Positions 21,283 through 54,965 are shown, counted from the first letter of the stretch. The stretch is DNA of 64,000 nt from an uncultured Gemmatimonadales bacterium (GCA_963783385.1 CAWANJ010000009.1:800001-864000); one strand, 5' to 3'. Notes: generated by a model from the letters alone, not told the origin. Numbers and translations are program-made.

Positions 21283-21283
21283 G

Positions 21284-24160: not shown

Positions 24161-24167
24161 GGGATGG

Positions 24168-31046: not shown

Positions 31047-31050
31047 GTCG

Positions 31051-31272: not shown

Positions 31273-31282
31273 GGCCGCGGAC

Positions 31283-36429: not shown

Positions 36430-36431
36430 CC

Positions 36432-38684: not shown

Positions 38685-40080
38685 GGCTTCCCTCACCTCC
38701 GTTCCCGCGCTGTTTTCCTTCTCCGGATCCGGCCGACCTTCCGGTCTTCCGGATCTTCAGCACCAGCATCGTGATGACCAGCAGGATCAGGGCTGCGGAG
38801 ACCGCCAGGCCCAGCCTGCGGACCTGGAGCTCCTGCAGCGCGTCCCGGCCCCGGGTGGCGGACTCGTCAGCCACCTCGAGTCCGGGATCGACCTTGGCCT
38901 TCACCGAGTCCACCACGAACGAGTGGATGGCGGCCCGCGCCTGGATGAGCGCGTTCCGGGCGTTGCTGAGGTTGGCCTGGGCCTGGCTCACCTCCATGCC
39001 GGCGTCCGCGGCACGACCGAGGATGGAGTCCGCCACCTGCATGCGGCCCGCCAGCGAGTCGATCAGCGAGCGCTCGCCCGTGGCCACCTGCGCGCCCTTG
39101 CTGTCGGCCGTGTGGCACCGACCGCAAACCGCGCTGTCCCCGACTCCCAGGAAGGCGTCCGTGGGCGCGTGGATCTCGTGGTTCCCGTGGCAGGTGACGC
39201 ATCCGGGAGCCCCGATCATGCTGAAGATCTCCGAGTGGAAGCTGGCCTCGAAGCGCCCGGCCTGTACGGCGTGACACTGACCGCACACGTTCACCACGCT
39301 GGAAACGCCCGGAGGGGTGGCTCCGTGGCTGCCGTGGCAGTCGTTGCACGTCGGAGCCGAGAGGTCGCCCTTCTGCGAGAGCGTCGCCCAGTGGACGCTC
39401 TTCTCATACTTCTGCATCTGGTCCGTCGGAATGCCGTACGGCTTCATGTAGTCCGCATCCGCGTGGCAGCGGCCACAGGTCCGGGCCACGTGGACGGGGT
39501 ACACGTTGGACTTGGGGTCCGACGGGGGGCGAATGGAGTGAATGTGGTGGCAGTCGGCGCACGTGGCCACGAGCGTGTCCCCGGCCGCGAGGCGGCGGCC
39601 GTGGACCGAAGTCCGGTACTCGGCGACCTGATCGACGCGCAGCGACGGGTTGAAGCGCTTCATGAACTGCGCGTCGGAATGGCAGCGTCCGCACAGCTCC
39701 GGGATGTCCTTCCGCGAGGGTATGCCGATGAACCCCTTCGCCGGATCCATGGCGCCGAAGCCGGAGTCCTTGTCATCGCCCCCGTGACAGGCGACGCACC
39801 CGAATCCCTTGCTCGCGTGGATGTCGTCGTGGAACTGCTTCGCCGGCGCCGAGAAGCGCTCGGAGTCGAGGGACCGGTGGCAGGTGACGCAGCTCTCCTC
39901 GGGCCGAGTCGCGCCCGTCGTGTCCGCGCTCGCCGCCCCCGTCGTGTCGGCGGCCGCGGCCGTGTCTCCTCGCGCCGGGGCGGCGGCCTCAGGGGTTCCC
40001 TGAGCGAAGATCTGTACGGTTCCGAAAGGCGATGCGGCCACAGCGAGGACGAAGCAAGCGAGTAGGGAGCGCACGCTCAT
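38674..40080 (-). CDS. Nonaheme cytochrome c, C-terminally membrane-anchored
   Basis: Signal peptide, 9 CxxCH, C-terminal TM helix. Confidence 0.92.
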   Translation of the reverse strand: MSVRSLLACFVLAVAASPFGTVQIFAQGTPEAAAPARGDTAAAADTTGAASADTTGATRPEESCVTCHRSLDSERFSAPAKQFHDDIHASKGFGCVACHGGDDKDSGFGAMDPAKGFIGIPSRKDIPELCGRCHSDAQFMKRFNPSLRVDQVAEYRTSVHGRRLAAGDTLVATCADCHHIHSIRPPSDPKSNVYPVHVARTCGRCHADADYMKPYGIPTDQMQKYEKSVHWATLSQKGDLSAPTCNDCHGSHGATPPGVSSVVNVCGQCHAVQAGRFEASFHSEIFSMIGAPGCVTCHGNHEIHAPTDAFLGVGDSAVCGRCHTADSKGAQVATGERSLIDSLAGRMQVADSILGRAADAGMEVSQAQANLSNARNALIQARAAIHSFVVDSVKAKVDPGLEVADESATRGRDALQELQVRRLGLAVSAALILLVITMLVLKIRKTGRSAGSGEGKQRGNGGEGSHGR

Positions 40081-41306
40081 CGTGACCTCGCGCTGAGTGA
40101 CTGCAGGTAGGTCGCCACGTCGGCCGTCTCCTGGGCCGTCAGAGACGGCCACCTGGTCCCCGGCGCGGTCGTCCCCGACACGGTGAGGTGGCTCCACAGA
40201 GCGGCCAGGACCGCGGGGACCGAGCTCAGGTTACGCACCTTTCCCAGGTCGCCGGCCTGTCCTCGGCCCGCCCCGTCGAGCGTATGGCAGGCGAGGCATC
40301 CCTTGCCGCGGATCAGGGCCCGGCCCCTGGCGGCGTCCCCCGAGGTGGAGAAGTAGCGGGCGGAATACAGGTAGGCCACCAGGTCGGCCATCTCGTCCGG
40401 ACCCACGGACGGCACCGCCATGCCCCGCCGCTCCATCCCCGCGATCATCGCGGGAGCCTCGTTCCACATGGCCGCCGCGAAGTCGATGAGCGTCCGCCCG
40501 GTGTCACGGCCGGAGAAGTCCGGGCCCCTCTGGCCCGGGCCCGTCCCATCGTGGCAAGTCGCGCAGCCCTTGGCCTCGAAGACCTGTCGTCCCATCTCCG
40601 CGCTCCCCGGTAGCACGTAGAACTGCCCTTCGCGGGGCGCCTCGGCACGGGACTCGAGGAAGGAGATGAGGTCGAGGAGCTGCTGGCCCGTGAAGGTGGG
40701 ACGCCGAATGCCCAGCGTGCGCATCTTCCGCATCATGGCCGGCCCATGGTTCCACAGGGCGGCGGCCACCACGATGGGCGAGCCGAACTGGCTGAGGAAG
40801 TCCAGGTCCGGGCCCACGACCCCGCCGGACCCGTCCACCTGGTGACACCGTATGCACTGCTTCTCCGAGAACAGCCGCTCCCCCCGGAGCGGGTCTCCCT
40901 GCTGGCCGAACGCGTTCACCGTCGACAGGAAGGCGCTCAGGTCACCGGCCTCCTCCGGCGTGAGGCGGAACGGCTTGACATCCCGCGCGAGCATGCGCTC
41001 GCGCATGCCCGGGAGATGGTTCCAGATGTCGGCGGCGAGGCCGAAGAAGGTGGGCGGCCCCTCCAGCCGGCCCAGGTCGGGGCCGATGTGGGCACCGATG
41101 CCGTTGATGGCATGACAGCCCGAGCATCCCTTGGAGCCGAAGACCCGGGCGCCCGTCAGGGCGCTCTCTGCGGAGGGAGGCGGCTGCTGGGCCGCCAGGC
41201 GGCCCGCGGGAATCCATCCGAACACCGCCAGCACCACGATCCCCACGAAGCGCAGAAGGCGTGGCCACACGCGGTCCGTCACCGAGGTGCGCATGGGGTG
41301 CGTCAC
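40077..41306 (-). CDS. Tetraheme cytochrome c (four class-I-like domains)
   Basis: CSGCH, CIRCH, CATCH, CLACH, each followed by GPDL- and WN(H)..PxM-like segments. Confidence 0.88.
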   Translation of the reverse strand: MTHPMRTSVTDRVWPRLLRFVGIVVLAVFGWIPAGRLAAQQPPPSAESALTGARVFGSKGCSGCHAINGIGAHIGPDLGRLEGPPTFFGLAADIWNHLPGMRERMLARDVKPFRLTPEEAGDLSAFLSTVNAFGQQGDPLRGERLFSEKQCIRCHQVDGSGGVVGPDLDFLSQFGSPIVVAAALWNHGPAMMRKMRTLGIRRPTFTGQQLLDLISFLESRAEAPREGQFYVLPGSAEMGRQVFEAKGCATCHDGTGPGQRGPDFSGRDTGRTLIDFAAAMWNEAPAMIAGMERRGMAVPSVGPDEMADLVAYLYSARYFSTSGDAARGRALIRGKGCLACHTLDGAGRGQAGDLGKVRNLSSVPAVLAALWSHLTVSGTTAPGTRWPSLTAQETADVATYLQSLSARSR

Positions 41307-41379
41307 GGAAGGAACTCGGCCGCCGCGGGAAGGGGGGCCCTCGCCACGGCGTCCATGGAGCGAGCTGCCGATCCTGCTC

Positions 41380-41844
41380 CTAGCTCTTCCCCTGGCCCTT
41401 GTCTTCCTTTTCCGCCTTGGCCGGGTGATGGCACACCGGACACATGTCGCTGGTGCGGCCGGCGTGGCTGGCGGGAATGTCCGGCACGTTCTTCATGGCC
41501 CCGGGCTTGTGGCACATGAGACATTCGCTCCGTCCCTCCGTCTCGTGTGGGATCGCCGGCGGCGCGGCCTTCTGGACCTCGGCGTCCGGCGCGTGACACA
41601 GGAGGCACTCCTTGACCGTGCGGCCTTTGTGGTCCGCGGGCATGGCGGGCACGTTCTTCATGGCGCCCGAGTGGCACATGACGCAGTTGCTTCTTCCCTC
41701 CAGAGAGTGCTTGACGACCGGGGGAGTCTTCCACTGCGACGCCGCGGGCTTCGCCGGCGCTTCCTTCTCCTGCGCGGCCGCCGGGGAGGCGACAACGGCT
41801 CCGAACAGAAGTGCGACGGCACCGACCGAAGCTATACGATTCAT
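41380..41844 (-). CDS. Small periplasmic tetraheme cytochrome c (internal duplication)
   Basis: RBS AAGGAG; signal peptide; two repeats of PP..(P/K)H..EGRS.CxxCH...AMKNVP..PA.H.GRT...CxxCH. Confidence 0.88.
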   Translation of the reverse strand: MNRIASVGAVALLFGAVVASPAAAQEKEAPAKPAASQWKTPPVVKHSLEGRSNCVMCHSGAMKNVPAMPADHKGRTVKECLLCHAPDAEVQKAAPPAIPHETEGRSECLMCHKPGAMKNVPDIPASHAGRTSDMCPVCHHPAKAEKEDKGQGKS

Positions 41845-42017
41845 AACGGCTCGCTCCTTAGAAGTACTGGAGGATCGACCCTGCACTCTAACGTCCCTTT
41901 CGGACCTCAGCAACAAGGACGGCACCGGGGCGCCCGACGTCACGCCATTCGCCCTCCCGGGGCGCTCACCCTGCGCAACGGCCACGCGCAGATTGGGGCC
42001 CGAGCAACCCTCCGGCA

Positions 42018-42504: not shown

Positions 42505-44079
42505 ATGCGATCCGTTCGTTGGCTGTCACGTTTCCTGGCCGCCCTGGTTGTGGTCGGCGGTGTCCTGGCCACCGGCTGTACGGACCGGGTGACGGTCTTC
42601 AAGCAGAAGCCCTTCTTCGACCAGCCCCCGGCCGGGGCCGGTGACTTCCTGGGCTACAGCGACCAGACGACCCAGACCACGGTGTGCGGCGACTGCCACG
42701 TCGGCGTGCAGGCGTCCTGGATCAAGACCAAGCACGCCAGCGCGTGGGCGGACCTCGAGGCGTCGGGGCATGCCAACGACACCTGCCGGCAGTGCCACAG
42801 TGTCAACGAGTTCGGCAACGCGACCACCGACTCGGGCGGCTGGACCACGACCAAGGACGCCCGCTACCAGGACGTCCAGTGCGAGAGCTGCCACGGTCCG
42901 GGACTCCAGCACGTCGAGAACCCGGATGCGAGCCAGCCGATCCCGTCCCTGGCGGTCCAGACGGACACCACGAGCCTCACGAACGGGTGCGCCGAGTGCC
43001 ACAACGGAACGCACCATCCCGTTCGTGGAGCAGTGGGCGCTGTCGAAGCACGCCACGTTCATCAACGGCGGGCCCACCGGCCACGCGGCGACGACCGAGG
43101 CGTGCGTCGGCTGCCACACCGGCCAGGGCGCGCTGGACCGGTGGGGCGTGACCGGGCCTTACAAGGAAAAGGACGCGTCGACGCCGATGCCGATCGTGTG
43201 CGGCGTGTGCCACGACCCGCACGGGAGCCCGAACCTGCACCAGCTCCGCTTCCCGATCGAGACCAGCTCGATCGAGACGCACCTGTGCGCCCAGTGCCAC
43301 AACTACGAGACGAGCCCCAATGGGGCGAGCCCGTACGGCCTCTCGCCGATGGCGCCCGAGGCGCAGCTCCTGGTGGGGACGGCCGGGTACTTCCCGCCCA
43401 ACCTCGACCTCACGCAGGCCGACTCGATCCACGGCACGCACGGGAGCACGGCGAACCCGACCCTGTGCACGACGTGTCACGTGCACGCGTTCAGCACGAC
43501 GCTGAAGGACACGGACGCGCCGTTCTCCGCGGTGGGCCACACCTTCAACGCGCTCCCCTGCATGGAGAACGGGGTACCCTCGGGGAACCTGGACTGCGCG
43601 ATCACGACCACGGCCCGGAGCTTCGACGCCTGCACCACCTCGGGGTGTCACGGTGACGCCGCCGCGACGCGCTCGGTCCTGATCTCGCGGCTCGTACTCG
43701 TCAAGGAGCGCTCGGACACGCTCAAGGCGATGCTCGACCGGATCGATCCCAACGGCACCCAGGCCGGCGGGGCCATCGATCCGAACGACGGCGTGCTGAC
43801 GCCGGCCGAGGGAGCCTTGTTCAACTACAATCTGGCCAACTGGCTGGAGGAAGTGAACGGCCAGAACAACAGCCCGGCTACTACCCGAACGGGTTCACCA
43901 ACCAGTACGTGAGCCTGCTGGGCTCGACGGTCCACAACCCGTTCCTTCTGACGGCGCTGCTGGACGGGAGCATCAATCAGCTGGCGACCACATACGCCGC
44001 GGCCAGCACGAACCCGACGTACCTGCAGCAGATCAAGACCGAGATCACGGACATCAAGGCCAAGGGCCAGGTCCACTGA
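42505..44079 (+). CDS. Multiheme c-type lipoprotein (~9 hemes); two apparent frameshifts (~43020, ~43875)
   Basis: RBS AGGAG; lipobox LATGC; 8 CxxCH plus CTTSGCH across frames; third frame gives GSTVHNP and TGA at 44077-44079. Confidence 0.85.
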
Positions 44080-44177: not shown

Positions 44178-45692
44178 ATGACGACCAGGCCCGGGCGCCT
44201 ACGCCGCGTGGGAGCGAGCCGTGCGCGGTGGATCCGGCGAGAGCTGCTCTCGCTCGTCGTGCTCGCGGCCGCGAGCCCGGCCGGGCTCGCGGCGCAGGGC
44301 TACAGCGCCAACGTCCAAGCGGGCATGGCCTCGGTGAAGCTCCGCCCGCTGGTCCGTGACAGCGTGCCCGAGTCCACCGTGCCGGGCCAGGGCCTTCTGC
44401 GGCGGCTCCCCAACGGCATCGTGGCGACCTGCATCCCGGGCGAGTACTGCCGATGGTACGGATCGGGCGCCGTGCGCTCGCTCACGACCGTGACCCAGGA
44501 GATCCACCTGGCCGCATGGCCCGGGATCCGGGGGCTGGCGGTCCACGCTCACATGCGTGGCTGGTACGGAAGCGACGGGGAGTGGCCGCTTTCGAGCCAC
44601 AGGCTCGAGGTGATGACCGCCTACCTCAGCTACGACATCTCCCGCTTCCATTTCGAGGGCGGCCGTCAGGACCGATTCGATGGCCTCGGGTACCGGAACT
44701 TCGACGGGCTCTCGGCCCGCTGGGACGGACTCGAGCCCCTGTCGGTCGAGGCCTACGGCGGTTGGTACCTGGCCCCCAACCTGGATGCGCCGCTCACCAG
44801 CTCGCTGATCTCCGACGCCGAGCCCCTGGCCTCGTGAACGACCGCGGACTGGTGTTCGGGGGCGAGCTCCAGGCCCACGCGGGTCGTCGCCTCTCCGGTT
44901 CGGCGGTCTACCAGCGGGTGATCCGGACGGACCGCCTGGCGCTGTACTCGGAGCGCGCGGCGCTGACGGCTCACGCCTTTCTCGGGCCCGCCAGCATGGA
45001 CCTCTCCGGGCGGTACGACTTCTCCTTCCAGCAGCTCGATCAGGTCCACGCGCGCGTGTCGGTGCCGGTTCGACCTTGCCTGGAACTCACGGCCGAGTAC
45101 CGACACTACCGTCCCTTCTTCCCGCTGTGGACGATCTGGGGCGCGTTCAGCCCGGTCGGCTACGACGGCGGCAGCGGCAGCCTGACCTGGCGGGTCCCCT
45201 CCCTCGGTCTCGGCCTGCAGGCCGGCGGCGGATACCGCTGGTACGAGAACTCGAGCACGGCGGGCGGAAACCTGGCCGGCTTCAAGGACACGGGCTGGCG
45301 CGCCTTCGGCGGCGCCAACTGGGCCTCCGGCGACTTGGTTCGCCAACGGCCAATACCAGGCGGACATCGGGCCGGGAGCGGCGGACATGGGTGGAGACCT
45401 GTCCGCCGGACGTCGCTTCGGCGAGAGGAGCTGGCTGGCTCTCCGGGCCACGTCCACCCGCAGCTTCGGCGAGTATCGGCTCGGTGACCAGCGGCTCACC
45501 GGCGCGGGACTCATCGGGTCCGCGCCGGTCGGCGACCTCCTGTTAACGGGCAGCGCGGGATTCTACCGGCTGTCCTACACGAACCGGCCGGCGATCACGG
45601 ACTGGACGCAGTTCCGGATGTTCCTGGGGGTGGGATACCACTTCGGCAGCGAGCCGACGGTCGCGTCGGTCCTGAAGGGGTACGGCCAATGA
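44178..45692 (+). CDS. Putative outer-membrane beta-barrel (porin of a porin-cytochrome conduit); two apparent frameshifts (~44829, ~45335)
   Basis: Signal peptide; amphipathic Tyr/Gly/Trp-rich strands throughout; last strand MFLGVGYHF; sits between two multiheme cytochromes. Confidence 0.7.
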
Positions 45693-47418
45693 GCGACCGC
45701 TGGCCAAGACGGATCGTCCTCGCGCTCGCCTTCCTGACCCTGACCGGCGGGCCCTGGGCCGGGTCGGCCCTGGCCGGCCAGGACACGACGGTCGTCCAGC
45801 GCCCCTTCCCGCACGCCCGCCACGTCGGACTGTTCCCGACCTGCGACGGCTGCCATGCGGGGATCCTGAACGGAGACTCGGCGAAGTGGCTCTCGGTGGG
45901 GCCCGAGTTCTGCCAGGTTTGCCACGACGGCGAGACGGTGAAGAAGATCGAGTGGACGACGCCCGAGCACCCTCGGACGAACCTCCACTTCACGCACGCC
46001 AAGCACGCTGCCGGATTCGAGAAGCTCGGGGCGCCGCCCGCGAAGTGCCAGACCTGTCACCAGGCCGAAGGCGGCACGGAACGTCCATGCAGGTGGTGAT
46101 GGCCAGGCCGACGCTCTGCGGGGCATGCCACTCACCGGACCACCTGTCGCTCCAGAACGACTGCGCCACGTGTCACGATCCGCTCACCCGGGCGTCGAAC
46201 CTGAGGACGTCCGACATCGCGGGCTTGCCCAAGCCTCCCTGGCACGATTCGGCCGACTTCCTCTTCCAGCACGGAGCGGAGGCCTCCGCGTCGGGCGCGG
46301 TGTGCTCCGTGTGCCACGCCCGCCAGAGCTGCACCCGCTGCCACCTGAACGCGTCGCAGGTGGAGCCGATCCAGGCCCTCGGCCCGGATCCGCGCGTCGC
46401 ACAGCTGGTCCACGGACGAGCGGGCCGGTGGCCGAAGCCGCCCAGCCACCGCGACCGGGACTGGGTCCTGTCCCACGGAGCGACGGCCCGGACCTCGCTG
46501 TCCACGTGCGCCGACTGCCACGCGGCTTCGAGCTGTGCGACCTGCCACCGCGGGCCGCGGGCCGGCTTCCTTTCGCAGATGCCGCGGGCCGTCGAGGGAG
46601 GACCGTCCGGGGTTCGCATCCACGCGTCGCCGCCTGGACACGGACCGGACTTCGCCACGCAGCACGGGGCGACCGCGGCCTCGGGTGCCATCGAGTGCTC
46701 CGCGTGTCACACGAAGGTCCAGTGCACGGCCTGCCATCGCGGGGGCGTGCCCTCCTCGCCGGCCGTCCACGCCCCCGGCACGGGCGGATCGGGAGGAGGG
46801 AACGAGCCGATGAGCCTCGGGAGCCCGAGCGTGCAGCCCGGGGAGCCGACGACACCGACGGACGAACGTCGCCCGCTGCGGAGGCCCGAGCCGCGCCCCG
46901 TAGTGTGGTTCGCCTCGCTGCGGACGACCGTTCGGACGGGGCCACGAGCCGTGCAGGACACCACGCCCCCGGCGTCCACGTCCTCTCGAGAAGACGGAGG
47001 ACAGGCAACCCCGGCCCCGCGGACCGGCGGCTTCCACCCACCCGATTACGTGCTCCGACACGGTGCCGACGCCTTCTCGCGTCGAGTCCAGTGCTCGGAG
47101 TGCCATTCGGCCCAGGCATTCTGCCTGACCTGCCACGAGAAAATGGGGATCGGACGGGGGGGCACGGCCGGGAGCCCCGCCTTTCACGATGCGGAGCCCA
47201 ACTGGCTGATCACGCACGGGCGGGCCGCCCGACAGAATATCGAGACCTGCATCTCCTGTCACCAGCAGAGCTCCTGCCTTCGGTGTCACAGCGCGAAGTT
47301 CGGATTCCGCATCGACCCGCACGGTCCGGGCTTCGATCCCAACCGCATCGCCGACCGCAGCACGATCTCCTGCGGAATCTGCCACTTCTCGCTCCCCAAA
47401 GGCGGAGGCGGGGGCTGA
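45689..47418 (+). CDS. Periplasmic 16-heme cytochrome c; one apparent frameshift (~46079)
   Basis: Signal peptide; 3 CxxCH in the first frame plus 13 in the second; repeated H...(F/W)...HG..A...CxxCH....CxxCH units. Confidence 0.85.
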
Positions 47419-47713: not shown

Positions 47714-48184
47714 ATGGTAGAGCCCACGGCTGCGCCGCTGGAGACGGACCCGCCGACCTGGCGACTGGCCTTCGGGGAGTACGTCCTCGCGGGCAGTGTC
47801 GCCATGCTGCTCCTGGGTGCCCTCGCCGCGGTGGTGCTGTACCTGATTCCTTCCAGCCCTCTGCAGCTGGAGGAGCTCCAGCCAGCGTACCAGGTGGCGC
47901 CCGAGGCCAACTTTCCGGTCAACAGCAGTCGCATCGTCAACTGGGGCGATCAGGTCATCCTGGTCGTTCGCACCGGGGATCAGTCGTATTCGGCGCTGCA
48001 GGGCACGGCCCCGACGGACGGCTGCATCCTGAGCTGGAACGAGACGTCGCTCCGCATCGTGTCGCCCTGCACCCACCTGGTCTACGACCTCCGTGGCAAC
48101 GTGGTCCGCGGACTCTCGACCGTCCCCCTCCAGCGCTATCCAGTGTTCATCCGTGACGGCGTCGTATACGTGGCGAGGCCGTAG
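47714..48184 (+). CDS. Rieske-fold protein lacking [2Fe-2S] ligands
   Basis: N-terminal TM helix; APTDGC and SPCT in place of CxHxGC and CPCH; YDLRGNVVRG..PLQRYPV...G.VYV is a Rieske-type tail; precedes cytochrome b. Confidence 0.8.
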   Translation: MVEPTAAPLETDPPTWRLAFGEYVLAGSVAMLLLGALAAVVLYLIPSSPLQLEELQPAYQVAPEANFPVNSSRIVNWGDQVILVVRTGDQSYSALQGTAPTDGCILSWNETSLRIVSPCTHLVYDLRGNVVRGLSTVPLQRYPVFIRDGVVYVARP

Positions 48185-48185
48185 C

Positions 48186-49469
48186 ATGGTCCCCAGAGAT
48201 TCGAAGCCTGCCAGGGAGTGGTTCGCCCGACTGTGGGCGGACCTGAAGGCCAGCACGGACGCGAGCCTGCTGGCGATCCTGCGCTTCGTCGGCCTCCTGT
48301 ATGGGCCGATCGACACCCGACTGCCCATGGGCGCGGCCTTCCGCAAGGCCCTGCGGCACCGGCTCTCCCCGGAGGCCGGATGGCGTCAGGCGTTCGGCGG
48401 GATCGCCTACCTTCTGTTCATGATCCTCGTGGTCACCGGCGTGCTCCTGTCCTTCTACTACCGGCCTTCTACACAGGAGGCCTACCAGAGCATTCAGCAC
48501 ATCGTGTCGGGCGTCTCCTTCGGCTGGCTCATGCGGGACCTGCACGTGTGGGCCGCGAACCTGGTGGTGCTCGCGGCGCTGCTGCACATGGCCCGCGTGT
48601 TCTTCGGTGCGGCCTACAAGCCTCCGCGCGAGACCAACTGGATCGTGGGAGTGCTCCTCCTGTTCAGCGTGTTCGCGTTCGGTGCGACGGGCTACCTCCT
48701 GCCGTGGGACCAGTGGTCGTACTGGACGGTGACCGAGGGACTGGACATCCTCGCCCGCGCACCCATCGTGGGAGGCTGGCTGGTCAGGGTCCTGCGGGCC
48801 GACCCGATCGTGTCCGGCGCCACCTTGAGCCGCTTCTTCGCCATCCACGTGATCGTGCTGCCCTGGCTGGTGCTCGGCCTGCTGGCCCTGCACTTCGCCC
48901 TGGTACGGAAGCATGGTGTCGCACCCCGCGTGAGCGGGACGCGGACGGGCGGGACGGGCGTTCCGTTCTTCCCGCACCACTTCCTGCGGATGGTGATCGC
49001 CGGAACGCTCGTCGTGGCCGTGGCCGTGACGGCCGCCCTCCTGTTCCCGCGTCCGGTCGCTGCTCCGGCCAACCCCGCGCAGCCGCCGGGAATGCTGTTC
49101 TCGACCTGGATCCTGGCCGACGTTTCTCGAGCCCTGATCTATTATCTCGGGGGCTGGGGCTTCGGCGCGTTCCTGCTGCTCGGAGCCGGGATGGTGCTCC
49201 TGCCGATCTTCGATCGTTCTCCCGAGAGGCGGCTTCGCCGCCGGCCGATCGTGGCCGCCCTGGGCGTCCTCTTCTTCCTGACCTTCGCGACCGCCTGGGG
49301 CGCCGGGTGGCGACTCCGCTCCGTTCCGACGACGACCTCGGGTGAGCTGACGCCGTTCCAGAAGCAGCCCACCGGGGCTACGCCGGGCGCTCCCCTGCCA
49401 CGCATCGCGCCCGCCAGCCGACCGGCGACGTCCGGATCGGACACGACGAATCCCGGGGGCGCGCCATGA
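48186..49469 (+). CDS. Cytochrome b paralog lacking the PEWY motif
   Basis: Four His ligands (DLHVW, LLHMA, AIHVI, ALHFA), GYLLPWDQ; FSTWIL at the PEWY position. Confidence 0.9.
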   Translation: MVPRDSKPAREWFARLWADLKASTDASLLAILRFVGLLYGPIDTRLPMGAAFRKALRHRLSPEAGWRQAFGGIAYLLFMILVVTGVLLSFYYRPSTQEAYQSIQHIVSGVSFGWLMRDLHVWAANLVVLAALLHMARVFFGAAYKPPRETNWIVGVLLLFSVFAFGATGYLLPWDQWSYWTVTEGLDILARAPIVGGWLVRVLRADPIVSGATLSRFFAIHVIVLPWLVLGLLALHFALVRKHGVAPRVSGTRTGGTGVPFFPHHFLRMVIAGTLVVAVAVTAALLFPRPVAAPANPAQPPGMLFSTWILADVSRALIYYLGGWGFGAFLLLGAGMVLLPIFDRSPERRLRRRPIVAALGVLFFLTFATAWGAGWRLRSVPTTTSGELTPFQKQPTGATPGAPLPRIAPASRPATSGSDTTNPGGAP

Positions 49470-50758
49470 CGACCGCGCTGACGGCGCTGCTCACAGCCAC
49501 CCTCCTCGCTGCGCCCGCGGCGGGAAGGCCGGCTCCGGCTCGCCCTGCCGGACGTACGGCTCCGACGCTTCCGGCGCAGGTCCCCGGAGCCATGGCCGAC
49601 ACGGCCAACGGCTGCCTGGCCTGCCACGCGGCGCAGCGGCGGGCCGCGACCGAAGGGGTCCATGCCGAGCACGGCGTCACCTGCGTGAGCTGTCACGGCG
49701 GCGACCCGGCCGCCGTCACCCTGCCCCGGGGACACAGCGGGCACTTCGTCGGCAAGCCGGACAAGGCCGCCACCGCGGAACTGTGCGGCTCGTGCCACTC
49801 GGACCCGGACAAGATGCGGGAATACGGCCTGCCCACGGGACAACTGGCCCAGTTCCGCTCGAGCAAGCACGGCCAGTTGTTGTTCGGGCAGCACAACACG
49901 GACGTTCCGACCTGCACGGACTGTCACGGAACGCATGTCATCTACCCGCCCTACGACGCCCGGAGCCGCGTCTATCCGACGAACATTCCGGGGACCTGCG
50001 CGAGCTGCCACTCGGACCCGAAGCTCATGGCGAAGTACCACATTCGCACGGACCAGTTCGCGCAGTTTCGCAACAGCGCCCACGGCGTCGCCCTGTTCCA
50101 GAACCAGAACTTCGCGGCGCCCACGTGCGTCGGGTGCCACGGCGCGCACTCCGAGCTGCCGCCCACGGTGACCGAGATCGCCAGCGTGTGCGGGCGCTGT
50201 CACGTGCTCGTCGAGCAGGAGTTCGCGAAGGGGCCCCATGGCGCCGCCGCCCGTGCCGGGAAGCTGCCGGGCTGCCTGGCGTGCCACAGCAACCACGGCA
50301 CCGAACGTGTCGCGGCGGACAGCATCAGCGCCACCTGCGACCGATGTCACGGATCCAACTCCCAGGTCCACCAGTTCGCGGTCGACATCCAGCACCGGGT
50401 CGTGCAGGCCACGGCGGACATCCAGTCGGCCGAGCGGGCGATCGACCAGATGGCCGCCGCCGGCCAGCGGGTCGGCTACTATCGCTTCCGATTCAGGTCG
50501 GGGCTCACGTACTTCCGCGAGATCGCCCAGAAGCAGCACCGCCTCAACCTGGACACGCTCGACGACCTCGCTCGTCGGGTGCGGTCCGTGTCGATCGACC
50601 TCGACTCGCGGGCGAAGGCGACCCAGGAGAGCCGTTGGGAGCACAGGCTCCTGCTCCTTCCGGTGTGGTTCCTGTCGCTGTCCGCGGTCGCGCTCGCCCT
50701 GCTGGCCCTGCGCGGTCTCCGGAAGACGAACCGGGACTCGGACTCCTCCGGGCCATAG
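49466..50758 (+). CDS. Nonaheme cytochrome c, C-terminally membrane-anchored (paralog of 38674-40080)
   Basis: 9 CxxCH with near-identical spacing and motifs to the minus-strand copy; C-terminal TM helix. Confidence 0.92.
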   Translation: MTTALTALLTATLLAAPAAGRPAPARPAGRTAPTLPAQVPGAMADTANGCLACHAAQRRAATEGVHAEHGVTCVSCHGGDPAAVTLPRGHSGHFVGKPDKAATAELCGSCHSDPDKMREYGLPTGQLAQFRSSKHGQLLFGQHNTDVPTCTDCHGTHVIYPPYDARSRVYPTNIPGTCASCHSDPKLMAKYHIRTDQFAQFRNSAHGVALFQNQNFAAPTCVGCHGAHSELPPTVTEIASVCGRCHVLVEQEFAKGPHGAAARAGKLPGCLACHSNHGTERVAADSISATCDRCHGSNSQVHQFAVDIQHRVVQATADIQSAERAIDQMAAAGQRVGYYRFRFRSGLTYFREIAQKQHRLNLDTLDDLARRVRSVSIDLDSRAKATQESRWEHRLLLLPVWFLSLSAVALALLALRGLRKTNRDSDSSGP

Positions 50759-50761
50759 CCT

Positions 50762-52786
50762 ATGTGGCCCACCGTACGCCGGCGGATCGCGCAATGGGGC
50801 GTCGTCCTGCTCCCGATCGTCATTCTGGCGGTCATTCTGATCAGCGTGGGCACGATCGGCTTCGTGGAGGTCTCCAGCCAGCCGTGGTTCTGCAAGAGCT
50901 GCCACATCATGAAGCCGTACTACCAGTCGTGGTCCACCTCTTCACACCGCGACGTAGCCTGCATCAAGTGCCACATCCCGCCCGGGGTGAAGTCCGAGGT
51001 CAGCCAGAAGATCCAGGCCGCCAACATGGTGGTGAAGTATTTCACCGGCGCCTACAGCACGCGGCCCTGGGCGGAGATCAGCGACGCTTCCTGTCTGCGC
51101 TCGGGCTGCCACGCCAGCCGGCTCATCGAGGGTGCGGTGGACTTCCACGGTGTCCGGTTCGATCACGCCCGGCATCTGGGGGAGATTCGGCGTGGCATGC
51201 AGCTCCACTGCACGAGCTGCCATTCCCAGATCGTCCAGGGAACGCACATCGCCGTGACGGAAGGCACCTGCTTCCTGTGTCACTTCAAGGACCGGCCGGC
51301 GGGCCAGCCACTGGGCGGCTGCACCGGGTGCCACCCCTCGCCGCCCAAGGTGACCTCTCCAGAGGGATTCGTGATCGATCACCCCCAGTTCGTGCGGGAC
51401 CGGATCGACTGTCTGTCCTGCCACAACGAGGTCACGCACGGAACCGGCGACGTCGACGAGGCGCGCTGCGTCAGCTGTCACAACGAGCCCGATCGTCTGG
51501 CCAAGCTCAACGAGCCTACGCTCCTGCACACCGTTCACGTCACGCAGCACAACATCGCCTGCATCCAGTGCCACACTACCATCGAGCACCGGATCGTGTC
51601 GCTGACGACGACCGTGGAGCTGGACTGCCGGAGCTGTCACAAGTCCGTGCACCTGGACCAGCAGAGGTTGTTCGCCGGCATCGGCGGGCACGGGGTGGAG
51701 CGTACGCCGAGCTCCATGTACAAGGCGCGCGTCTCGTGCGTGGCGTGTCACGACCAGGCCAAGAAGCTCCCGGCCCACGACACCGTGAACATGGCCAGCC
51801 AGTCCTCCTGCATGTCCTGCCACGGCATCCGGTACGCCAACGTGCTTCCCAGCTGGCAGAAGGGCATGAAGCGCAAGGTCGGCCTGGTGGCGCCCATCGT
51901 CGCCGCGGCCCGCGCGGCGGCCGCCGCAGTGCCGCTCGGCCGCCGCGGACCGGCGGACAGCCTCCTGAACATGGCCCAGGACAACCTGGAGTTCGTCCGC
52001 GAGGGCAAGGGCGCCCACAACATCGTCTACGCGGACAAGCTACTGCGGGCCGCCCTCGGCATGGTGCGCGAGGCCGTGAAGGAGGAGCACCTGCCCTACC
52101 GCGTGCCGGCGGTCGACCTGGGCCCGCCGTTGAGCGAGAACATATGCCTGCAGTGCCACCTGGGGATCGAGCAGCAGAAGGGCACGTTCCAGGGCGCGTC
52201 GTTCGACCACACGGCCCACGTGCTGCGCGCCGGGCTGCAGTGCAACGATTGCCACACGCCGTTCTCCAACCACGGCGGCATCACCCTCGCGTCGACCGCG
52301 AGCTGCAACGCTTGCCACCACCCGGTGGTGCAGCCCCGGAACTGCGCCACCTGCCACGAGGGACCGGGTGGGGCGCCGTCCAGGCCCATAACCCTGCCCC
52401 AGGGCATCTTCCCGCATCGGCCTCACGTCGCGGCGAACATCGCCTGCACGACCTGCCACACGGCACCGATGATGAACGCGCGGACCCTCCAGTGCGACAA
52501 CTGTCATGCACAGCACCACCAGCCGACGGTCACCTGCCTGAACTGCCATCGGGGCGGCGTCCTGGCCCTGCACGATCAGCAGAACCACGTGTTGTGTGCG
52601 CAGTGTCATACCTCGGTCCCGGCGTTGGCGCACTGGACGCGGCAGATATGCACGGTGTGCCACGCGGACAAGACCGATCACAACCCGGGACGAGCCTGCA
52701 GCGTGTGTCATAGAGTGCCGGCCATGGGAACGTCCCGCACCGCCGTGCCGGGCGCCGGCGCGGAGGAGCCACCTCAAGTCCACTAG
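50762..52786 (+). CDS. NapC/NirT-like membrane-anchored ~22-heme cytochrome c
   Basis: N-terminal TM helix; FCKSCHIM....SW..SSH..VACIKCH; 21 CxxCH plus CLRSGCH. Confidence 0.9.
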   Translation: MWPTVRRRIAQWGVVLLPIVILAVILISVGTIGFVEVSSQPWFCKSCHIMKPYYQSWSTSSHRDVACIKCHIPPGVKSEVSQKIQAANMVVKYFTGAYSTRPWAEISDASCLRSGCHASRLIEGAVDFHGVRFDHARHLGEIRRGMQLHCTSCHSQIVQGTHIAVTEGTCFLCHFKDRPAGQPLGGCTGCHPSPPKVTSPEGFVIDHPQFVRDRIDCLSCHNEVTHGTGDVDEARCVSCHNEPDRLAKLNEPTLLHTVHVTQHNIACIQCHTTIEHRIVSLTTTVELDCRSCHKSVHLDQQRLFAGIGGHGVERTPSSMYKARVSCVACHDQAKKLPAHDTVNMASQSSCMSCHGIRYANVLPSWQKGMKRKVGLVAPIVAAARAAAAAVPLGRRGPADSLLNMAQDNLEFVREGKGAHNIVYADKLLRAALGMVREAVKEEHLPYRVPAVDLGPPLSENICLQCHLGIEQQKGTFQGASFDHTAHVLRAGLQCNDCHTPFSNHGGITLASTASCNACHHPVVQPRNCATCHEGPGGAPSRPITLPQGIFPHRPHVAANIACTTCHTAPMMNARTLQCDNCHAQHHQPTVTCLNCHRGGVLALHDQQNHVLCAQCHTSVPALAHWTRQICTVCHADKTDHNPGRACSVCHRVPAMGTSRTAVPGAGAEEPPQVH

Positions 52787-52803: not shown

Positions 52804-54117
52804 ATGCGCTCCGTGGTCCGATTCGTCTGGATTCTGGGCGCGCTCGCGCCGGGGCTCGTCGGAGTCCGGACTGTCTCGGCGCAGGCGAGCAGGGCGACGT
52901 CCACGCAGGTCGTGGAGTGCACCAAGTGCCACGCCGACCACGACCTCCTCGCCGCCAACGCCACCGGCCAGCGACAGGACTCTGCCCTCTACGTAACCAC
53001 GGCGGTCCTGGACAGCTCCGTGCACCGGTCGTTGCAGTGCACGGACTGTCACCGGGGCTTCGAGGCCGGCTTCCCCCACCAGGTCAGCCAGGTGGTGGTG
53101 CCCTGCTCCACCTGCCACGAGAAGGAGGGCCGGAACTGGGAGGCCTCGATCCACGCCCGGAACGCCGAGACGGTGGGCGACGCGCCCACCTGCGTGGGGT
53201 GCCACGGAAGCCACCGGGTCCTCGCCACCACCGACCCGCGGTCACCGACGTATCCGCTGAACGTGGCCGGCCTGTGCAGCCGCTGCCACGCGGACCCGCG
53301 CATCATCGGCCGCTACTTCACGGGCCCCGGCTACCAGGAGGCCCGCATCGCCGCCACGGCCTTCCCCAAGAGCGTGCACGGGATCGCGCTCACCAGGGAC
53401 GGACTCGTGGTATCGGCCACCTGCTCGGACTGTCACCGTGCGCACCTCATCCTGCCGCCCGACTCGGCGCGCTCCTCGGTCAACCGGGCCAACATCCCGC
53501 AGACCTGCGGGAAGTGCCACGCCGGCGTCGTCAAGGTGTACGAGGCCTCCGCGCACGGGCCCGACTACCCGCCGCAGCCGGGGATCGCCGAGGGGCATTC
53601 GCGGCCCGTGTGCATCGACTGTCACTCGGCGCACGAGATCGTCCGCGCCGACCGGCCGGCATGGCAGCGCAGTACGGTCCAGAAGTGCGGCAGCTGCCAC
53701 GAGCACCTGTACGAGACCTACTTCGAGACCTACCACGGACAGGTGACGCACCTGGGATCCAACCTGGCCGCCAAGTGCAGCGACTGCCACACGGCGCATG
53801 ACATGCGCTCGCCCACGGACCCGAAGTCCACGGTGTTCGCGGCCAACCTGGTCCAGACCTGCGGCCAGTGCCACGCGGGCGCCAACGCCAACTTCGTCAA
53901 GTACTACGCGCACGGTGACCCGACGCAGCGGACGCGGTACCCGCTCCTGTACTGGCCGTGGCTGCTCATGACCGGGCTGCTGGTGAGCGTGATGGCCTTC
54001 TTCGTGATCCACAGCGTGCTGTGGCTGATCCGGAACGGCATCGAGCACCGGCGGGGCGGACGCGGCTCCGGCGGGCCGGCGGCGGGACCACCGACGAGCG
54101 GAGGGAGGGAGTCATGA
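52804..54117 (+). CDS. 11-heme cytochrome c with C-terminal TM helix (CbcL-like c domain)
   Basis: Signal peptide; 11 CxxCH; TM helix containing FFVIHS.LW. Confidence 0.9.
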   Translation: MRSVVRFVWILGALAPGLVGVRTVSAQASRATSTQVVECTKCHADHDLLAANATGQRQDSALYVTTAVLDSSVHRSLQCTDCHRGFEAGFPHQVSQVVVPCSTCHEKEGRNWEASIHARNAETVGDAPTCVGCHGSHRVLATTDPRSPTYPLNVAGLCSRCHADPRIIGRYFTGPGYQEARIAATAFPKSVHGIALTRDGLVVSATCSDCHRAHLILPPDSARSSVNRANIPQTCGKCHAGVVKVYEASAHGPDYPPQPGIAEGHSRPVCIDCHSAHEIVRADRPAWQRSTVQKCGSCHEHLYETYFETYHGQVTHLGSNLAAKCSDCHTAHDMRSPTDPKSTVFAANLVQTCGQCHAGANANFVKYYAHGDPTQRTRYPLLYWPWLLMTGLLVSVMAFFVIHSVLWLIRNGIEHRRGGRGSGGPAAGPPTSGGRES

Positions 54118-54965
54118 CGCGGCGTACGATGGACGCGGCCGGCCGGGGCCAGGGCCCGTACATCCGGCGCTTCACCGGCTTCCAGCGGACCCTCCACGTC
54201 ATGGTGATCGTGTCCTTCCTCGGCCTGGTCGCCACCGGGCTGCCGCTGCGCTTCGCGGCCGCGCCCTGGGCTCGCGGCGTCATGGACCTGTTCGGGGGCC
54301 CGGTGGCCGCGGGGCTCTTCCACCGGTTCTGCGCCATCATCACGTTCGGCTACTTCCTCGCGCACGTCATCCAGATCACCTACCGGCTGGTGAAGGTCGA
54401 GGGACCGAGGAAGCTGCTGTGGGGCCCGGACTCCATGGTACCGCAGCCCAAGGACATCCGGGACCTGATCCAGATGTTCAAGTGGTTCTTCGGCAAGGCC
54501 CCGCACCCCGAGTTCGAGCGCTTCAGCTACATGGAGAAGTTCGATTACTGGGCGGTGTTCTGGGGGGTGGCCATCATCGGCACGTCGGGGCTGTTCCTGT
54601 GGTTCCCGACCTTCTTCGCCCACATGATGCCCGGGTGGGTGTTCAACATCGCGACCATCGTGCACGGTGACGAGGCGCTGCTGGCCACGTCGTTCATCTT
54701 CACGATCCACTTCTTCAACGTGCACCTGCGGCCGGAGAAGTTCCCCATCGACACGGTGATCTTCACGGGCCGGGCCACCGCGGAGTACATGCAGGAGGAG
54801 CACGGCCTCGAGTACGAGCGTCTGCGGCGCGACGGCCGGGTCGAGGAGCGGTTGGTGCCGCCGGCCTCGCGCGCGGCCTACCTGTGGTCGGTGACGGTGG
54901 GCTTCATCGCCGTCGGGATCGGCACGGTGCTCATCGTCCTCGTCCTCTGGGCCCTCCTGGCATGA
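54114..54965 (+). CDS. FdnI/HydC-like diheme cytochrome b (CbcL-like b domain)
   Basis: RRFT..QR.LH, FHRFCA, FSYMEKFDYWAVFWG, VHGDEALLA, IHFFN; ATGA overlap. Confidence 0.9.
   Translation: MTRRTMDAAGRGQGPYIRRFTGFQRTLHVMVIVSFLGLVATGLPLRFAAAPWARGVMDLFGGPVAAGLFHRFCAIITFGYFLAHVIQITYRLVKVEGPRKLLWGPDSMVPQPKDIRDLIQMFKWFFGKAPHPEFERFSYMEKFDYWAVFWGVAIIGTSGLFLWFPTFFAHMMPGWVFNIATIVHGDEALLATSFIFTIHFFNVHLRPEKFPIDTVIFTGRATAEYMQEEHGLEYERLRRDGRVEERLVPPASRAAYLWSVTVGFIAVGIGTVLIVLVLWALLA

What the first reader, a model, noticed from the sequence alone, without database searches (positions are those of the whole stretch)
47714..50758. Cluster-less pseudo-Rieske paired with a PEWY-less cytochrome b: a bc-like complex without a Qo site
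Seen: box 1 CxHxGC reads APTDGC and box 2 CPCH reads SPCT. All four [2Fe-2S] ligands are lost while exactly the two disulfide cysteines remain, and there is no twin-Arg motif. The adjacent cytochrome b keeps all four heme His but has FSTWIL where PEWY belongs. A fully canonical paralogous trio (Rieske, PEWY cytochrome b, 9-heme cytochrome) lies in the divergent operon. Inference: the coordinated, selective loss points to a maintained new function. This could be a non-bifurcating quinone-to-multiheme wire, or the inert half of an asymmetric heterodimeric bc complex.
Basis: partly seen in the sequence, partly recalled or inferred. Interest (0 to 1): 0.85.

Follow-up and report, generated by a model that had tools for sequence, protein, structure and literature searches.

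The report
Cluster-less Rieske / cytochrome b complex
An uncultured sediment bacterium (Gemmatimonadota) keeps a second, conserved "complex III-like" gene set whose Rieske protein has lost its iron-sulfur site, so it must link quinones to long chains of c-type haems in a way that differs from the textbook Q cycle.

Summary
Gene 47714-48184 encodes a membrane-anchored Rieske-fold protein with all four [2Fe-2S] ligands replaced, both disulfide cysteines kept and no twin-arginine signal. The next gene (true start 48186) is a 7-helix cytochrome b with all four haem histidines but STW in place of PEWY. This is not decay: 113 of 113 homologues lack the ligands, 64 of 64 partner cytochromes b lack PEWY, and dN/dS of the closest pairs is 0.05-0.17. 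The family was found only in Gemmatimonadota MAGs (41 of 401 sampled genomes). It always sits in a fixed module: pseudo-Rieske, cytochrome b, 9-haem cytochrome, 21-haem NrfH-like cytochrome. A syntenic sister module in another class of the phylum still has an intact Rieske and PEWY. Two of the 41 genomes carry no other cytochrome b, which argues against an obligatory heterodimer with the canonical paralogue. My best reading (about 0.4) is a non-bifurcating quinone-to-multihaem oxidoreductase with the Rieske protein kept as a structural subunit. "No Qo site" is not proven. A cluster-less Rieske with a retained disulfide is already published for Acidocella ("deranged bc1"). This scan found the same Gemmatimonadota family before in other genomes. 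I call it a new variant of a known kind.

The parts
47714..48184 (+). E: cluster-less Rieske-fold subunit (156 aa). N-terminal TM helix about residues 18-45, no Tat motif, ligand positions A99/T101/S117/T120, disulfide pair C104/C119.
   Evidence: PF13806 24.5 bits and PF00355 17.1 bits, both below cut-off; AF2 pLDDT 87.2; best PDB match 8hn2_A, Chlorobaculum Rieske domain, E 1.2e-8, rmsd 1.4 A.
48186..49469 (+). F: fused b6 + subunit-IV-like cytochrome b (427 aa, 7 TM). Haem His 120/134/221/236. S306-T-W308...D312-V-S-R replaces PEWY. No Cys for haem ci. Pro/Thr-rich tail.
   Evidence: PF00033 164 bits; no PF00032 hit; cyt b6 7r0w_I, E 4.3e-51 over residues 61-246.
49466..50758 (+). G: 9-haem c-type cytochrome with signal peptide and C-terminal TM anchor. 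Paralogue of the canonical operon's 9-haem subunit.
   Evidence: all nine CXXCH invariant in 52 rows; 30% identity to 38674-40197, E 8e-60.
50762..52786 (+). H: N-terminal TM plus NrfH/NapC-like domain fused to a long multihaem chain (21 CXXCH + 1 CX4CH). First motif is CKSCHIM.
   Evidence: PF03264 52.7 bits; TIGR03153 NrfH, E 3.7e-16, below cut-off; 59/59 homologues CXXCHxM; 47/47 have 21 CXXCH.
52804..54117 (+). I: 11-haem cytochrome c with a C-terminal hydrophobic segment.
   Evidence: often conserved with J, on either strand.
53958..54965 (+). J: FdnI / b561-type di-haem membrane cytochrome b. The ORF is as listed; the real start is probably near 54118.
   Evidence: PF01292 36.5 bits; TIGR01583, E 2.9e-12, below cut-off.
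42505..43912 (+). A: multihaem cytochrome c upstream of the module. In this genome it is read in two frames, because of one extra G near 43021.
   Evidence: (41 of 42 loci in one frame).
45689..46099 (+). C: small tri-haem c7-like cytochrome.
45886..47418 (+). D: 13-CXXCH cytochrome; probable start near 46084. My earlier ORF 46125-47432 was the wrong frame.
38190..38696 (-). Canonical paralogue: Rieske Fe-S subunit (CTHLGC, CPCH, SRREV Tat motif).
   Evidence: PF00355 45.4 bits.
37093..38193 (-). Canonical paralogue: PEWY cytochrome b (366 aa).
   Evidence: (PF00033 176.7 bits; PF00032 48.2 bits).
38674..40197 (-). Canonical paralogue: 9-haem cytochrome c with C-terminal TM anchor.
40077..41985 (-). 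Further cytochromes of the canonical operon: four mono-haem c domains (40077-41306) and a tetra-haem c3-like protein (41380-41985).

Best explanation
E, F and G (probably with H) encode a bc-derived inner-membrane complex that has given up the Rieske-dependent, bifurcating quinol oxidation.

Proposed working:
- The di-haem cytochrome b still carries electrons across the membrane. They pass between a quinone site (most simply the N-side, Qi-type site) and the c-type haems on the periplasmic side.
- The first of those haems belong to the 9-haem subunit G, which is anchored like cytochrome c1/f. The 21-haem NrfH-like protein H and the other multihaem cytochromes of the island follow.
- The Rieske protein is kept without a cofactor as a structural subunit, acting as a membrane clamp and periplasmic docking surface. 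It is inserted without the Tat pathway.
- In an anoxic-sediment organism whose island also holds a [NiFe] hydrogenase, the likely direction is menaquinol to low-potential periplasmic or extracellular acceptors.

Shown: the ligand loss, the fold, conservation, purifying selection, the fixed gene module, independence from the canonical paralogue in two genomes, and an intact sister module.

Inferred: that the proteins form one complex, the electron path, its direction, and the absence of bifurcation.
For: (1) All four 2Fe-2S ligands are absent in 113/113 homologues, while both disulfide Cys are kept. The top 14 of the 150 best representatives in a profile search of 1.84 billion proteins are all ligand-less.
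(2) A Rieske fold with TM anchor is predicted with confidence (pLDDT 87.2). The best PDB match is a bc-type Rieske domain, and full-length b6f PetC also matches.
(3) The Tat motif is lost: 97 of 103 full-length members have no RR in the first 45 residues, and 6 have a non-consensus RR. This fits a subunit that needs no cytoplasmic cofactor insertion.
(4) The haem-b histidines are kept in 65/65, 65/65, 64/65 and 65/65 sequences, while PEWY is absent in 64/64.
(5) dN/dS (NG86) for the six closest pairs: pseudo-Rieske 0.048-0.166, its cytochrome b 0.055-0.160, canonical Rieske 0.092-0.175.
(6) Synteny in 68 loci: F follows E in 68/68. G is present in 61/68 and H in 59/68; every locus lacking them ends before their position. 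All nine CXXCH of G are invariant. H has 21 CXXCH in 47/47.
(7) The replaced regions are themselves constrained. Mean column identity is 0.86 for STW..DVSR against 0.64 for the rest of the ef loop, and 0.76 for the ex-cluster loops of E against 0.61 for its TM helix.
(8) G191 and G269 have this cytochrome b only.
(9) Rieske-free b+c quinol oxidoreductases that feed multihaem chains are experimentally known in Geobacter (CbcBA: preprint 10.1101/2021.04.15.440034, passages read).
Against: No experiment exists, and every carrier found is a MAG. No RNA run holding the locus was listed.

Complex formation of G with E/F could not be supported.

The cd-helix half of the Qo pocket and the Trp of PEWY stay conserved, and SxWF is a published Qo-motif variant. 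A quinone may therefore still bind on the P side.

H carries its own NrfH-type quinol site. That makes a second quinone site in F less obviously needed.

In solved bc complexes no c haem is close to haem bL (recalled knowledge). Electron exit from bL therefore requires a rearrangement that I cannot show.

The intact sister module already had G and H, so these did not arise to replace the lost cluster.
Confidence: 0.4

Rival explanations
1. A modified Q cycle without iron-sulfur. Quinol is still oxidised at a remodelled P-side pocket of F. A c-type haem (haem 1 of the NrfH-like H, or a haem of G held in place by the pseudo-Rieske head) takes the first electron in place of the 2Fe-2S cluster. 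Haem bL takes the second electron.
For: The cd helix PWDQ..YW, the Trp of PEWY and 45 other positions are shared with all canonical types. A new, strongly conserved STW..DVSR motif with an invariant-to-90% Asp could serve as proton acceptor. SxWF is described as a likely quinol-binding motif in bc subfamily L (PMC5600118). H has a membrane-proximal CXXCHxM haem in 59/59 homologues. Both b haems are retained.
Against: No precedent is known for a haem replacing the Rieske cluster at Qo. The conserved head of E would be expected to occupy the docking site. G and H are also present beside an intact Rieske in the sister module. No contact prediction is available.
Confidence: 0.2
2. A catalytically dead relic kept as a scaffold, as proposed for the 'deranged' bc1 complex of Acidocella. 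The proteins would stabilise or assemble other respiratory complexes or the multihaem chain and transfer no electrons themselves.
For: [quoted passage not shown] 39 of the 41 genomes here also have another cytochrome b.
Against: Unlike Acidocella, all four b-haem ligands are kept. Every CXXCH of G and H is conserved. Selection on F is as strong as on the canonical proteins. Two genomes have no other cytochrome b. The family has persisted across at least six families of the phylum.
Confidence: 0.12
3. One reading: F/E is the inert half of a heterodimer with the canonical cytochrome b / Rieske pair encoded nearby.
For: The canonical trio lies within 10 kb in 21 of 68 loci, and on the same contig in many sampled genomes. 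bc complexes are obligate dimers (textbook knowledge).
Against: G191 and G269 have no second cytochrome b. Their other PF00355 hits are not next to a cytochrome b. In G016 the canonical pair is 1.1 Mb away. The module has its own 9-haem subunit. The two cytochromes b are only 48% identical over the first 200 residues and are not alignable by BLASTP after that.
Confidence: 0.05
4. E carries a different cofactor at the old cluster site, for example a mononuclear metal held by C104, C119, D102 and H/Y121, and is still a redox or sensing subunit.
For: The two Cys are invariant, D102 is at least 90% conserved, and position 121 is His or Tyr in nearly all members. The ex-cluster loops are among the best conserved parts of E.
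Against: Position 121 switches between Tyr, His, Phe, Asn and Ser, and D102 is Glu or Asn in some members. The loss of the Tat signal argues against a cofactor inserted in the cytoplasm. In canonical Rieske proteins these two Cys form a disulfide (PMC10715153 passage, citing Iwata 1996).
Confidence: 0.05

Closest known systems
Canonical menaquinol-type Rieske/cytochrome b complexes (b6f-like 'green' type), including the paralogue at 37093-40197 and the syntenic intact module in other Gemmatimonadota classes (L111, L112)
   Same: Same subunit set and gene neighbourhood: a TM-anchored Rieske fold, a cytochrome b with four haem His (b6 part 45-50% identical to cyt b6), and a 9-haem subunit with a C-terminal anchor. 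L111/L112 share the order Rieske, cytochrome b, 9-haem G-like (34% identity), NrfH-like H-like (40-42% identity).
   Different: No cluster ligands, no Tat motif, no PEWY, a 9-residue deletion after the PEWY position, and no detectable PF00032 domain.
'Deranged' bc1 complex of Acidocella/Acidiphilium (Degli Esposti et al. 2023, PMC10715153; passages read, its supplementary figures not seen)
   Same: A Rieske subunit in a bc operon that lacks three or four cluster ligands but keeps the disulfide cysteine pair. It is retained in the genome.
   Different: There the cytochrome b has lost the bH histidines. The operon is the single alphaproteobacterial petABC with a mono-haem c1, and the authors suggest a non-functional, structural role. 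Here both b haems are kept, PEWY is what is lost, the module is a paralogue with multihaem partners, and it is under purifying selection across a class of Gemmatimonadota.
Geobacter ExtO/ExtP/ExtQ with ExtM/ExtN multihaem cytochromes, and cytochrome b 'subfamily L' with an SxWF motif (PMC5877670, PMC2825233, PMC5600118; passages read)
   Same: F's best NCBIfam models are ExtP (219 bits) and, weakly, ExtQ. Both systems combine a bc core with 10-12-haem cytochromes. A Ser-x-Trp motif stands in place of PxWY.
   Different: Both scores are below the curated cut-offs (290 and 150 bits). ExtO is annotated as a Rieske iron-sulfur protein. ExtP and ExtQ are separate proteins. I could not fetch their sequences to compare motifs.
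Geobacter CbcBA / CbcL (Rieske-free b-type plus multihaem c-type quinol oxidoreductases; preprint 10.1101/2021.04.15.440034, passages read)
   Same: A di-haem membrane cytochrome b paired with a multihaem c that is anchored by a C-terminal helix, feeding low-potential extracellular acceptors. This is a functional analogue of my leading reading. The window's I+J pair has the same make-up.
   Different: The b subunits there are described as quinone-oxidoreductase-like di-haem cytochromes, not as bc1/b6f cytochrome b with a Rieske-fold partner. Homology to F was not tested.
NirD-type cluster-less Rieske folds
   Same: A Rieske fold without cluster ligands. E scores best on Pfam Rieske_2 (PF13806), and structures 3c0d_C and 4aiv appear among the fold matches.
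   Different: NirD is a soluble cytoplasmic subunit of nitrite reductase. E has a TM anchor, the bc-type disulfide pair and a cytochrome b partner, and its best fold match is a bc-type Rieske domain.

Membership tests
Rieske/cytochrome b complex (bc1 / b6f) | Rieske-fold subunit with N-terminal membrane anchor, encoded beside cytochrome b | tested here: met
   AF2 model and Foldseek. F is adjacent in 30/30 and 68/68 loci.
Rieske/cytochrome b complex (bc1 / b6f) | Four [2Fe-2S] ligands (CxH ... CxxH) | tested here: not met
   A, T, S, T in the window. Absent in 113/113 homologues.
Rieske/cytochrome b complex (bc1 / b6f) | Disulfide cysteine pair of bc-type Rieske proteins | tested here: met
   C104 and C119 are present in 113/113. 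Formation of the bond itself was not tested.
Rieske/cytochrome b complex (bc1 / b6f) | Twin-arginine (Tat) signal on the Rieske subunit | tested here: not met
   No RR in the window protein. 97/103 full-length members lack RR. The adjacent canonical Rieske proteins carry SRRxF.
Rieske/cytochrome b complex (bc1 / b6f) | Cytochrome b with two His pairs for haems bL and bH | tested here: met
   65/65, 65/65, 64/65 and 65/65. PF00033 164 bits against a cut-off of 27.2.
Rieske/cytochrome b complex (bc1 / b6f) | PEWY / PxWY Qo motif in the ef loop | tested here: not met
   [ST/A][ST/N]W[VIL] in 64/64. No PF00032 hit.
Pfam Rieske (PF00355) / Rieske_2 (PF13806) | Score at or above the gathering threshold | tested here: not met
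   17.1 against 20.3 bits and 24.5 against 27 bits.
NCBIfam ExtP (NF040969) / ExtQ (NF040970) | Score at or above the curated cut-off | tested here: not met
   219.4 against 290 bits and 21.7 against 150 bits.
'Deranged' bc1 of Acidocella type | Rieske without cluster ligands but with the disulfide pair | tested here: met
   compared with the passage in PMC10715153.
'Deranged' bc1 of Acidocella type | Cytochrome b lacking the bH histidines; single petABC operon with cytochrome c1 | tested here: not met
   All four His are kept. The partner is a 9-haem cytochrome.
NapC/NirT/NrfH quinol dehydrogenases (for H) | N-terminal TM helix plus PF03264 domain; first haem motif CXXCHxM (this signature is recalled from the NrfH literature, not taken from a call) | tested here: met
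   PF03264 52.7 bits against a cut-off of 24.1. CXXCHxM in 59/59. The TIGR03153 NrfH equivalog is below its cut-off (59.4 against 134.2 bits).
Cytochrome b6f with haem ci/cn | CxGG cysteine in helix A | tested here: not met
   The alignment to cyt b6 places Ala at the Cys position (AFGG).

The most novel reading that the evidence does not exclude
The module runs a Q cycle without an iron-sulfur cluster. A c-type haem, positioned by the cofactor-free Rieske head or belonging to the NrfH-like subunit, has taken over the role of the 2Fe-2S centre as first electron acceptor at a remodelled P-side quinol site. Haems bL and bH still recycle the second electron. The intact sister module in the same phylum would then be the 'before' state of a natural cofactor replacement in complex III.
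Probability: 0.17. Interest if true: 0.92.

Novelty: new variant of a known kind. Interest (0 to 1): 0.72.

Why it matters
The Rieske cluster and the PEWY loop are regarded as the defining catalytic parts of all bc1/b6f complexes.

Here a whole bacterial lineage keeps the protein frame, both b haems and about 30 c haems under purifying selection, but lacks those parts. The same phylum offers a syntenic version with the parts intact.

That pair makes a long-standing question testable: what can a cytochrome b core do without the bifurcating Qo reaction? The candidates are a transmembrane electron wire, a haem-based Q cycle, or a pure scaffold.

The finding also affects metabolic annotation. These genes are labelled 'ubiquinol-cytochrome c reductase' or 'nitrite reductase small subunit' in databases, so energy-conservation models for sediment and soil Gemmatimonadota that count them as complex III are probably wrong.

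Tried and rejected
(1) Complex prediction with F(40-385) + E + G(40-430), partner G. The verdict was 'no answer'. The score was 0.71 in three runs and 0.00 and 0.00 with the partner replaced, but 0.61 with chain 1 replaced. This is neither support nor evidence against binding. The pairwise jobs the tool suggests could not be run because the cap is 1.
(2) Expression: no RNA holder was listed for 47600-50800. The holders were DNA runs labelled sediment, salt-marsh and soil metagenomes.
(3) Covariation between E position 121 (H/Y) and F position 315 (R/L) in 87 of 98 loci: no association.
(4) Placing the intact sister cytochromes b (L111, L112) on the tree: the paths are above 3 changes per column and no supported position was obtained. 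Sisterhood therefore rests on synteny and on G/H similarity only.
(5) Sites conserved in all canonical types but changed in the pseudo clade: the strict test found only G206D and A289R. That is too few to map a lost pocket.
(6) Split forms of the C-terminal part of F among shorter proteins: only 3 Gemmatimonadota fragments.
(7) ORFs 48218-49345 and 46125-47432 were wrong frames. The dN/dS sets for cCytb and cMH507 were contaminated by cross-hits to the paralogues and are not used. Medians over all pairs (0.29-0.32) are affected by saturation, so I quote the closest pairs.
(8) Literature. No paper describing the Gemmatimonadota family was found with the searches (0 papers), nor in passages of PMC5600118, PMC4122944 and PMC10469786. 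A mention there cannot be excluded.
Full report
WHAT IS THERE

The window is G000:C9:800001-864000, about 70% G+C. The closest database cytochrome b (95% identical) is named as coming from a Candidatus Palauibacterales MAG, phylum Gemmatimonadota.

Gene E (47714-48184, +) encodes 156 residues. It has one N-terminal hydrophobic helix and a C-terminal domain that aligns with the canonical Rieske paralogue of the same window (28% identity, E 1e-11).
- Box 1 is A-P-T-D-G-C against C-T-H-L-G-C.
- Box 2 is S-P-C-T against C-P-C-H.
- So all four cluster ligands are gone. The two cysteines that remain (C104, C119, the only ones in the protein) are those that form the disulfide in bc-type Rieske proteins.
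- There is no RR in the N-terminus.

Two bases after its stop codon, ATG 48186 opens gene F (427 aa).
- F has seven predicted helices.
- The two His pairs have 13- and 14-residue spacing.
- Its N-terminal four-helix part is very like cytochrome b6 (E 4.3e-51 to 7r0w_I).
- It has no Cys for haem ci.
- It reads F-S-T-W-I-L where the paralogue has K-P-E-W-Y-F, followed by a 9-residue deletion.
- BLASTP aligns F to the canonical cytochrome b only over the first 200 residues (48% identity). The subunit-IV-like part no longer aligns, and Pfam finds no PF00032 domain.

F overlaps by four bases with G (49466-50758). G has nine CXXCH and a C-terminal anchor and is a clear paralogue of the canonical operon's nine-haem cytochrome (30% identity, E 8e-60, same haem spacing).

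H (50762-52786) has an N-terminal helix, an NrfH/NapC-type domain (PF03264, 52.7 bits) whose first motif is CKSCHIM, and 21 CXXCH in all.

IS IT DECAY OR A MAINTAINED STATE?

Rieske homologues. A search of 5.8 billion proteins gave 113 sequences including the query (E <= 0.001 among 379 candidates; 48-100% identity). All 113 lack the four ligands and all 113 keep both cysteines. Consensus: G-T-[AS]-P-x-D-G-C-I-L-x-W ... S-P-C-[TS]-[YH]-x-V-Y-D.

Profile search. I built a profile from 75 of these 113, leaving out fragments and near-duplicates, and ran it over 1.84 billion representatives.
- It found 984 proteins at E <= 0.001.
- Of the best 150, the top 14 (E 1.5e-65 to 3.6e-26) are ligand-less. 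One of these is cut before box 2.
- 94 have C-H-C-H, 11 cover only the N-terminus, and the rest have partial sets.

Partner cytochrome b.
- In 30 of 30 genome loci a cytochrome b follows directly. 29 of 29 that reach the region lack PEWY.
- In a second set, 64 of 64 lack it. The four haem histidines are present in 65/65, 65/65, 64/65 and 65/65.

Selection. dN/dS (Nei-Gojobori) of the six closest pairs is 0.048-0.166 for E and 0.055-0.160 for F, against 0.092-0.175 for the canonical Rieske. Medians over all pairs (0.29-0.32) suffer from saturation.

The replaced segments are themselves conserved:
- STW..DVSR 0.86 mean column identity, against 0.64 for the rest of the ef loop.
- Ex-cluster loops of E 0.76, against 0.61 for its TM helix.

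Tat signal. 97 of 103 full-length members have no RR in the first 45 residues. The canonical Rieske genes in the same loci carry SRRxF next to the helix.

Fold. AlphaFold2 gives a confident Rieske fold (pLDDT 87.2). Its best solved match is the Chlorobaculum tepidum bc-type Rieske domain (8hn2_A, E 1.2e-8, rmsd 1.4 A, 28% identity). Full-length b6f PetC chains and cluster-less NirD structures appear further down the list. The model of F (pLDDT 76.9) matches full-length cytochromes b of bcc/bc1 complexes over about 400 columns.

DISTRIBUTION AND CONTEXT

Of 401 sampled genomes of the phylum, 41 hold an orthologue (E <= 2e-39). The next hits are at E 5e-15 or weaker.

A scan of one genome per species of GTDB, using the motif SPC[TSD][YH][LVI]VYD, returned 68 loci. 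All are from Gemmatimonadota MAGs and none from an isolate. The scan could only find sequences with that motif.

Within these 68 loci:
- F follows E in 68.
- G is present in 61 and H in 59. All loci lacking them end before the expected position.
- An upstream multihaem gene (A) and an 11-haem + FdnI-like pair (I, J) are common.
- V-type ATPase genes lie upstream in about a dozen.
- The canonical nine-haem/Rieske/cytochrome b trio lies within 10 kb in 21 loci.

H homologues have CXXCHxM as first motif in 59 of 59, and 21 CXXCH in 47 of 47.

In this window the island is flanked by a [NiFe] hydrogenase with hyp genes and by a V-type ATPase.

Gemmatimonadota genomes carry up to five cytochrome b types. 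The pseudo type is one well-supported clade (100/100; 21 of 65 pseudo rows were used), with a stem no longer than those of the other types.

First, of the 41 carrier genomes, 39 have at least two PF00033 cytochromes b. G191 (96% complete, 4 contigs) and G269 (93%) have only the pseudo type, and their other Rieske-domain genes are elsewhere. An obligatory heterodimer with a canonical partner is therefore unlikely.

Second, two genomes of another class (G009, G006; loci L111, L112) have the same gene order: Rieske, cytochrome b, nine-haem G-like (34% identity), NrfH-like H-like (40-42% identity, CNSCH[NI]M).
- Their Rieske has RRSFL/RRTFL, C-[PT]-H-K-G-C and C-P-C-H. Their cytochrome b has Q-K-P-E-W-Y.
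- The Rieske of these loci shares the segment [FY]-D-L-[RK]-G-N-V with the pseudo family. It scores better against the pseudo family than the other canonical paralogues do.
- This looks like the unaltered sister of the module. The cytochrome b tree cannot confirm it, because the branches are too long.
- It shows that G and H predate the loss, so they did not arise to replace the cluster.

WHAT CAN AND CANNOT BE CONCLUDED ABOUT MECHANISM

Without the 2Fe-2S centre the first, obligatory electron transfer of the bifurcated Qo reaction has no acceptor. The textbook Q cycle is excluded. That much follows from established knowledge of bc complexes.

'No Qo site' does not follow:
- The cd-helix motif PWDQ..YW, the Trp of PEWY and 45 positions in all are shared with every canonical type.
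- The new loop carries a conserved Asp.
- Dibrova et al. 2017 describe a bc subfamily L whose 'likely quinol-binding motif' is SxWF (PMC5600118, passage read).
- F's best NCBIfam models are Geobacter ExtP and, weakly, ExtQ, both below cut-off. These belong to a cluster with a Rieske protein ExtO and 10-12-haem cytochromes (PMC5877670, PMC2825233, passages read).

Retention of both b haems under selection points to continued transmembrane electron transfer. My leading reading (0.4) is a non-bifurcating quinone-to-multihaem oxidoreductase in which E is a structural subunit. It is functionally comparable to the Rieske-free CbcBA/CbcL of Geobacter (preprint 10.1101/2021.04.15.440034, passages read).

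The rivals are:
- a haem-based Q cycle (0.2);
- a dead scaffold like the Acidocella complex (0.12);
- a heterodimer (0.05);
- a new cofactor in E (0.05).

The one complex prediction available gave no verdict and is not used.

WHAT IS KNOWN

A cluster-less Rieske that keeps its disulfide pair in a bc operon is already in print for Acidocella. There it comes with loss of the bH ligands and is read as a non-functional 'deranged' complex, perhaps structural (Degli Esposti et al. 2023, PMC10715153, passages read).

The Gemmatimonadota family differs in four ways:
- both b haems are kept;
- PEWY is lost instead;
- the partners are multihaem cytochromes;
- conservation is phylum-scale.

I found no paper on it. 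Dibrova 2013 and ten Brink 2013 are not held, and supplements were closed.

My tests on this window agree with them.

VERDICT

This is a real, conserved feature. It is not a member of the functional Rieske/cytochrome b family in the strict sense, because three defining features were tested and not met. It is clearly derived from that family, so I class it as a new variant of a known kind. Interest 0.72.

Noticed in passing
window 42505-43912 (near 43021): Multihaem gene A is read in two frames here because of one extra G (CCCGTTCG against CCC-TTCG in L031 and L032). In 41 of 42 other loci the two parts share one frame. Contigs of runs X4 and X7 leave one letter out at 43017. The X1 and X2 contigs over the spot each show one gap, whose place was not listed. 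This is probably an assembly error, not a pseudogene.
   Followed up: partly
proteins P0256, P0264, P0269, P0270 and others: A group of Rieske-like proteins of about 195-227 aa, named as Planctomycetota where a name exists. They keep three ligands, but the first His is replaced (CTSEVC or CHMEDC ... CPCH). Others have C-R-C-D or C-S-C-D. Degenerate Rieske sites are thus not confined to Gemmatimonadota.
   Followed up: partly
L099-L110 and genomes: Gemmatimonadota genomes carry up to five cytochrome b types. These are the pseudo type; the adjacent PEWY type; a PEWF type (about 350 aa, Rieske CPHLGC); a PEWY type fused to a C-terminal cytochrome c domain (about 500 aa); and an APWY type (about 470 aa) with the Rieske gene after cytochrome b.
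   Followed up: partly
window 18706-37124: A [NiFe] hydrogenase (small and large subunits, 25500-28383, minus strand), HypF/HypD/HypE genes (18706-23638) and a V-type ATPase operon (28570-37124) lie directly beside the cytochrome island. V-type ATPase A/B genes are also upstream of the module in about a dozen other loci.
   Followed up: no
window 45886-47418 and 52804-54965: The island holds further large cytochromes: D with 13 CXXCH, and I with 11 CXXCH followed by an FdnI-like di-haem cytochrome b (J). The I+J pair has the make-up of Geobacter CbcL/CbcBA. Together with A, C, G and H, the plus-strand cluster encodes more than 60 c-haem sites.
   Followed up: no
window 47436-47711 (upstream of E): In contigs of three runs, the intergenic stretch before the pseudo-Rieske gene is replaced or shortened (joints 47436/47498 and 47627/47711). 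The coding region is nearly identical. The promoter region therefore varies between strains.
   Followed up: no
G388:C1:942893-944016: One single-contig genome (90% complete) has the pseudo-Rieske and its cytochrome b, but no H-like match at E <= 1e-40. The cytochrome b open frame there is 569 aa. This may be a variant architecture.
   Followed up: no
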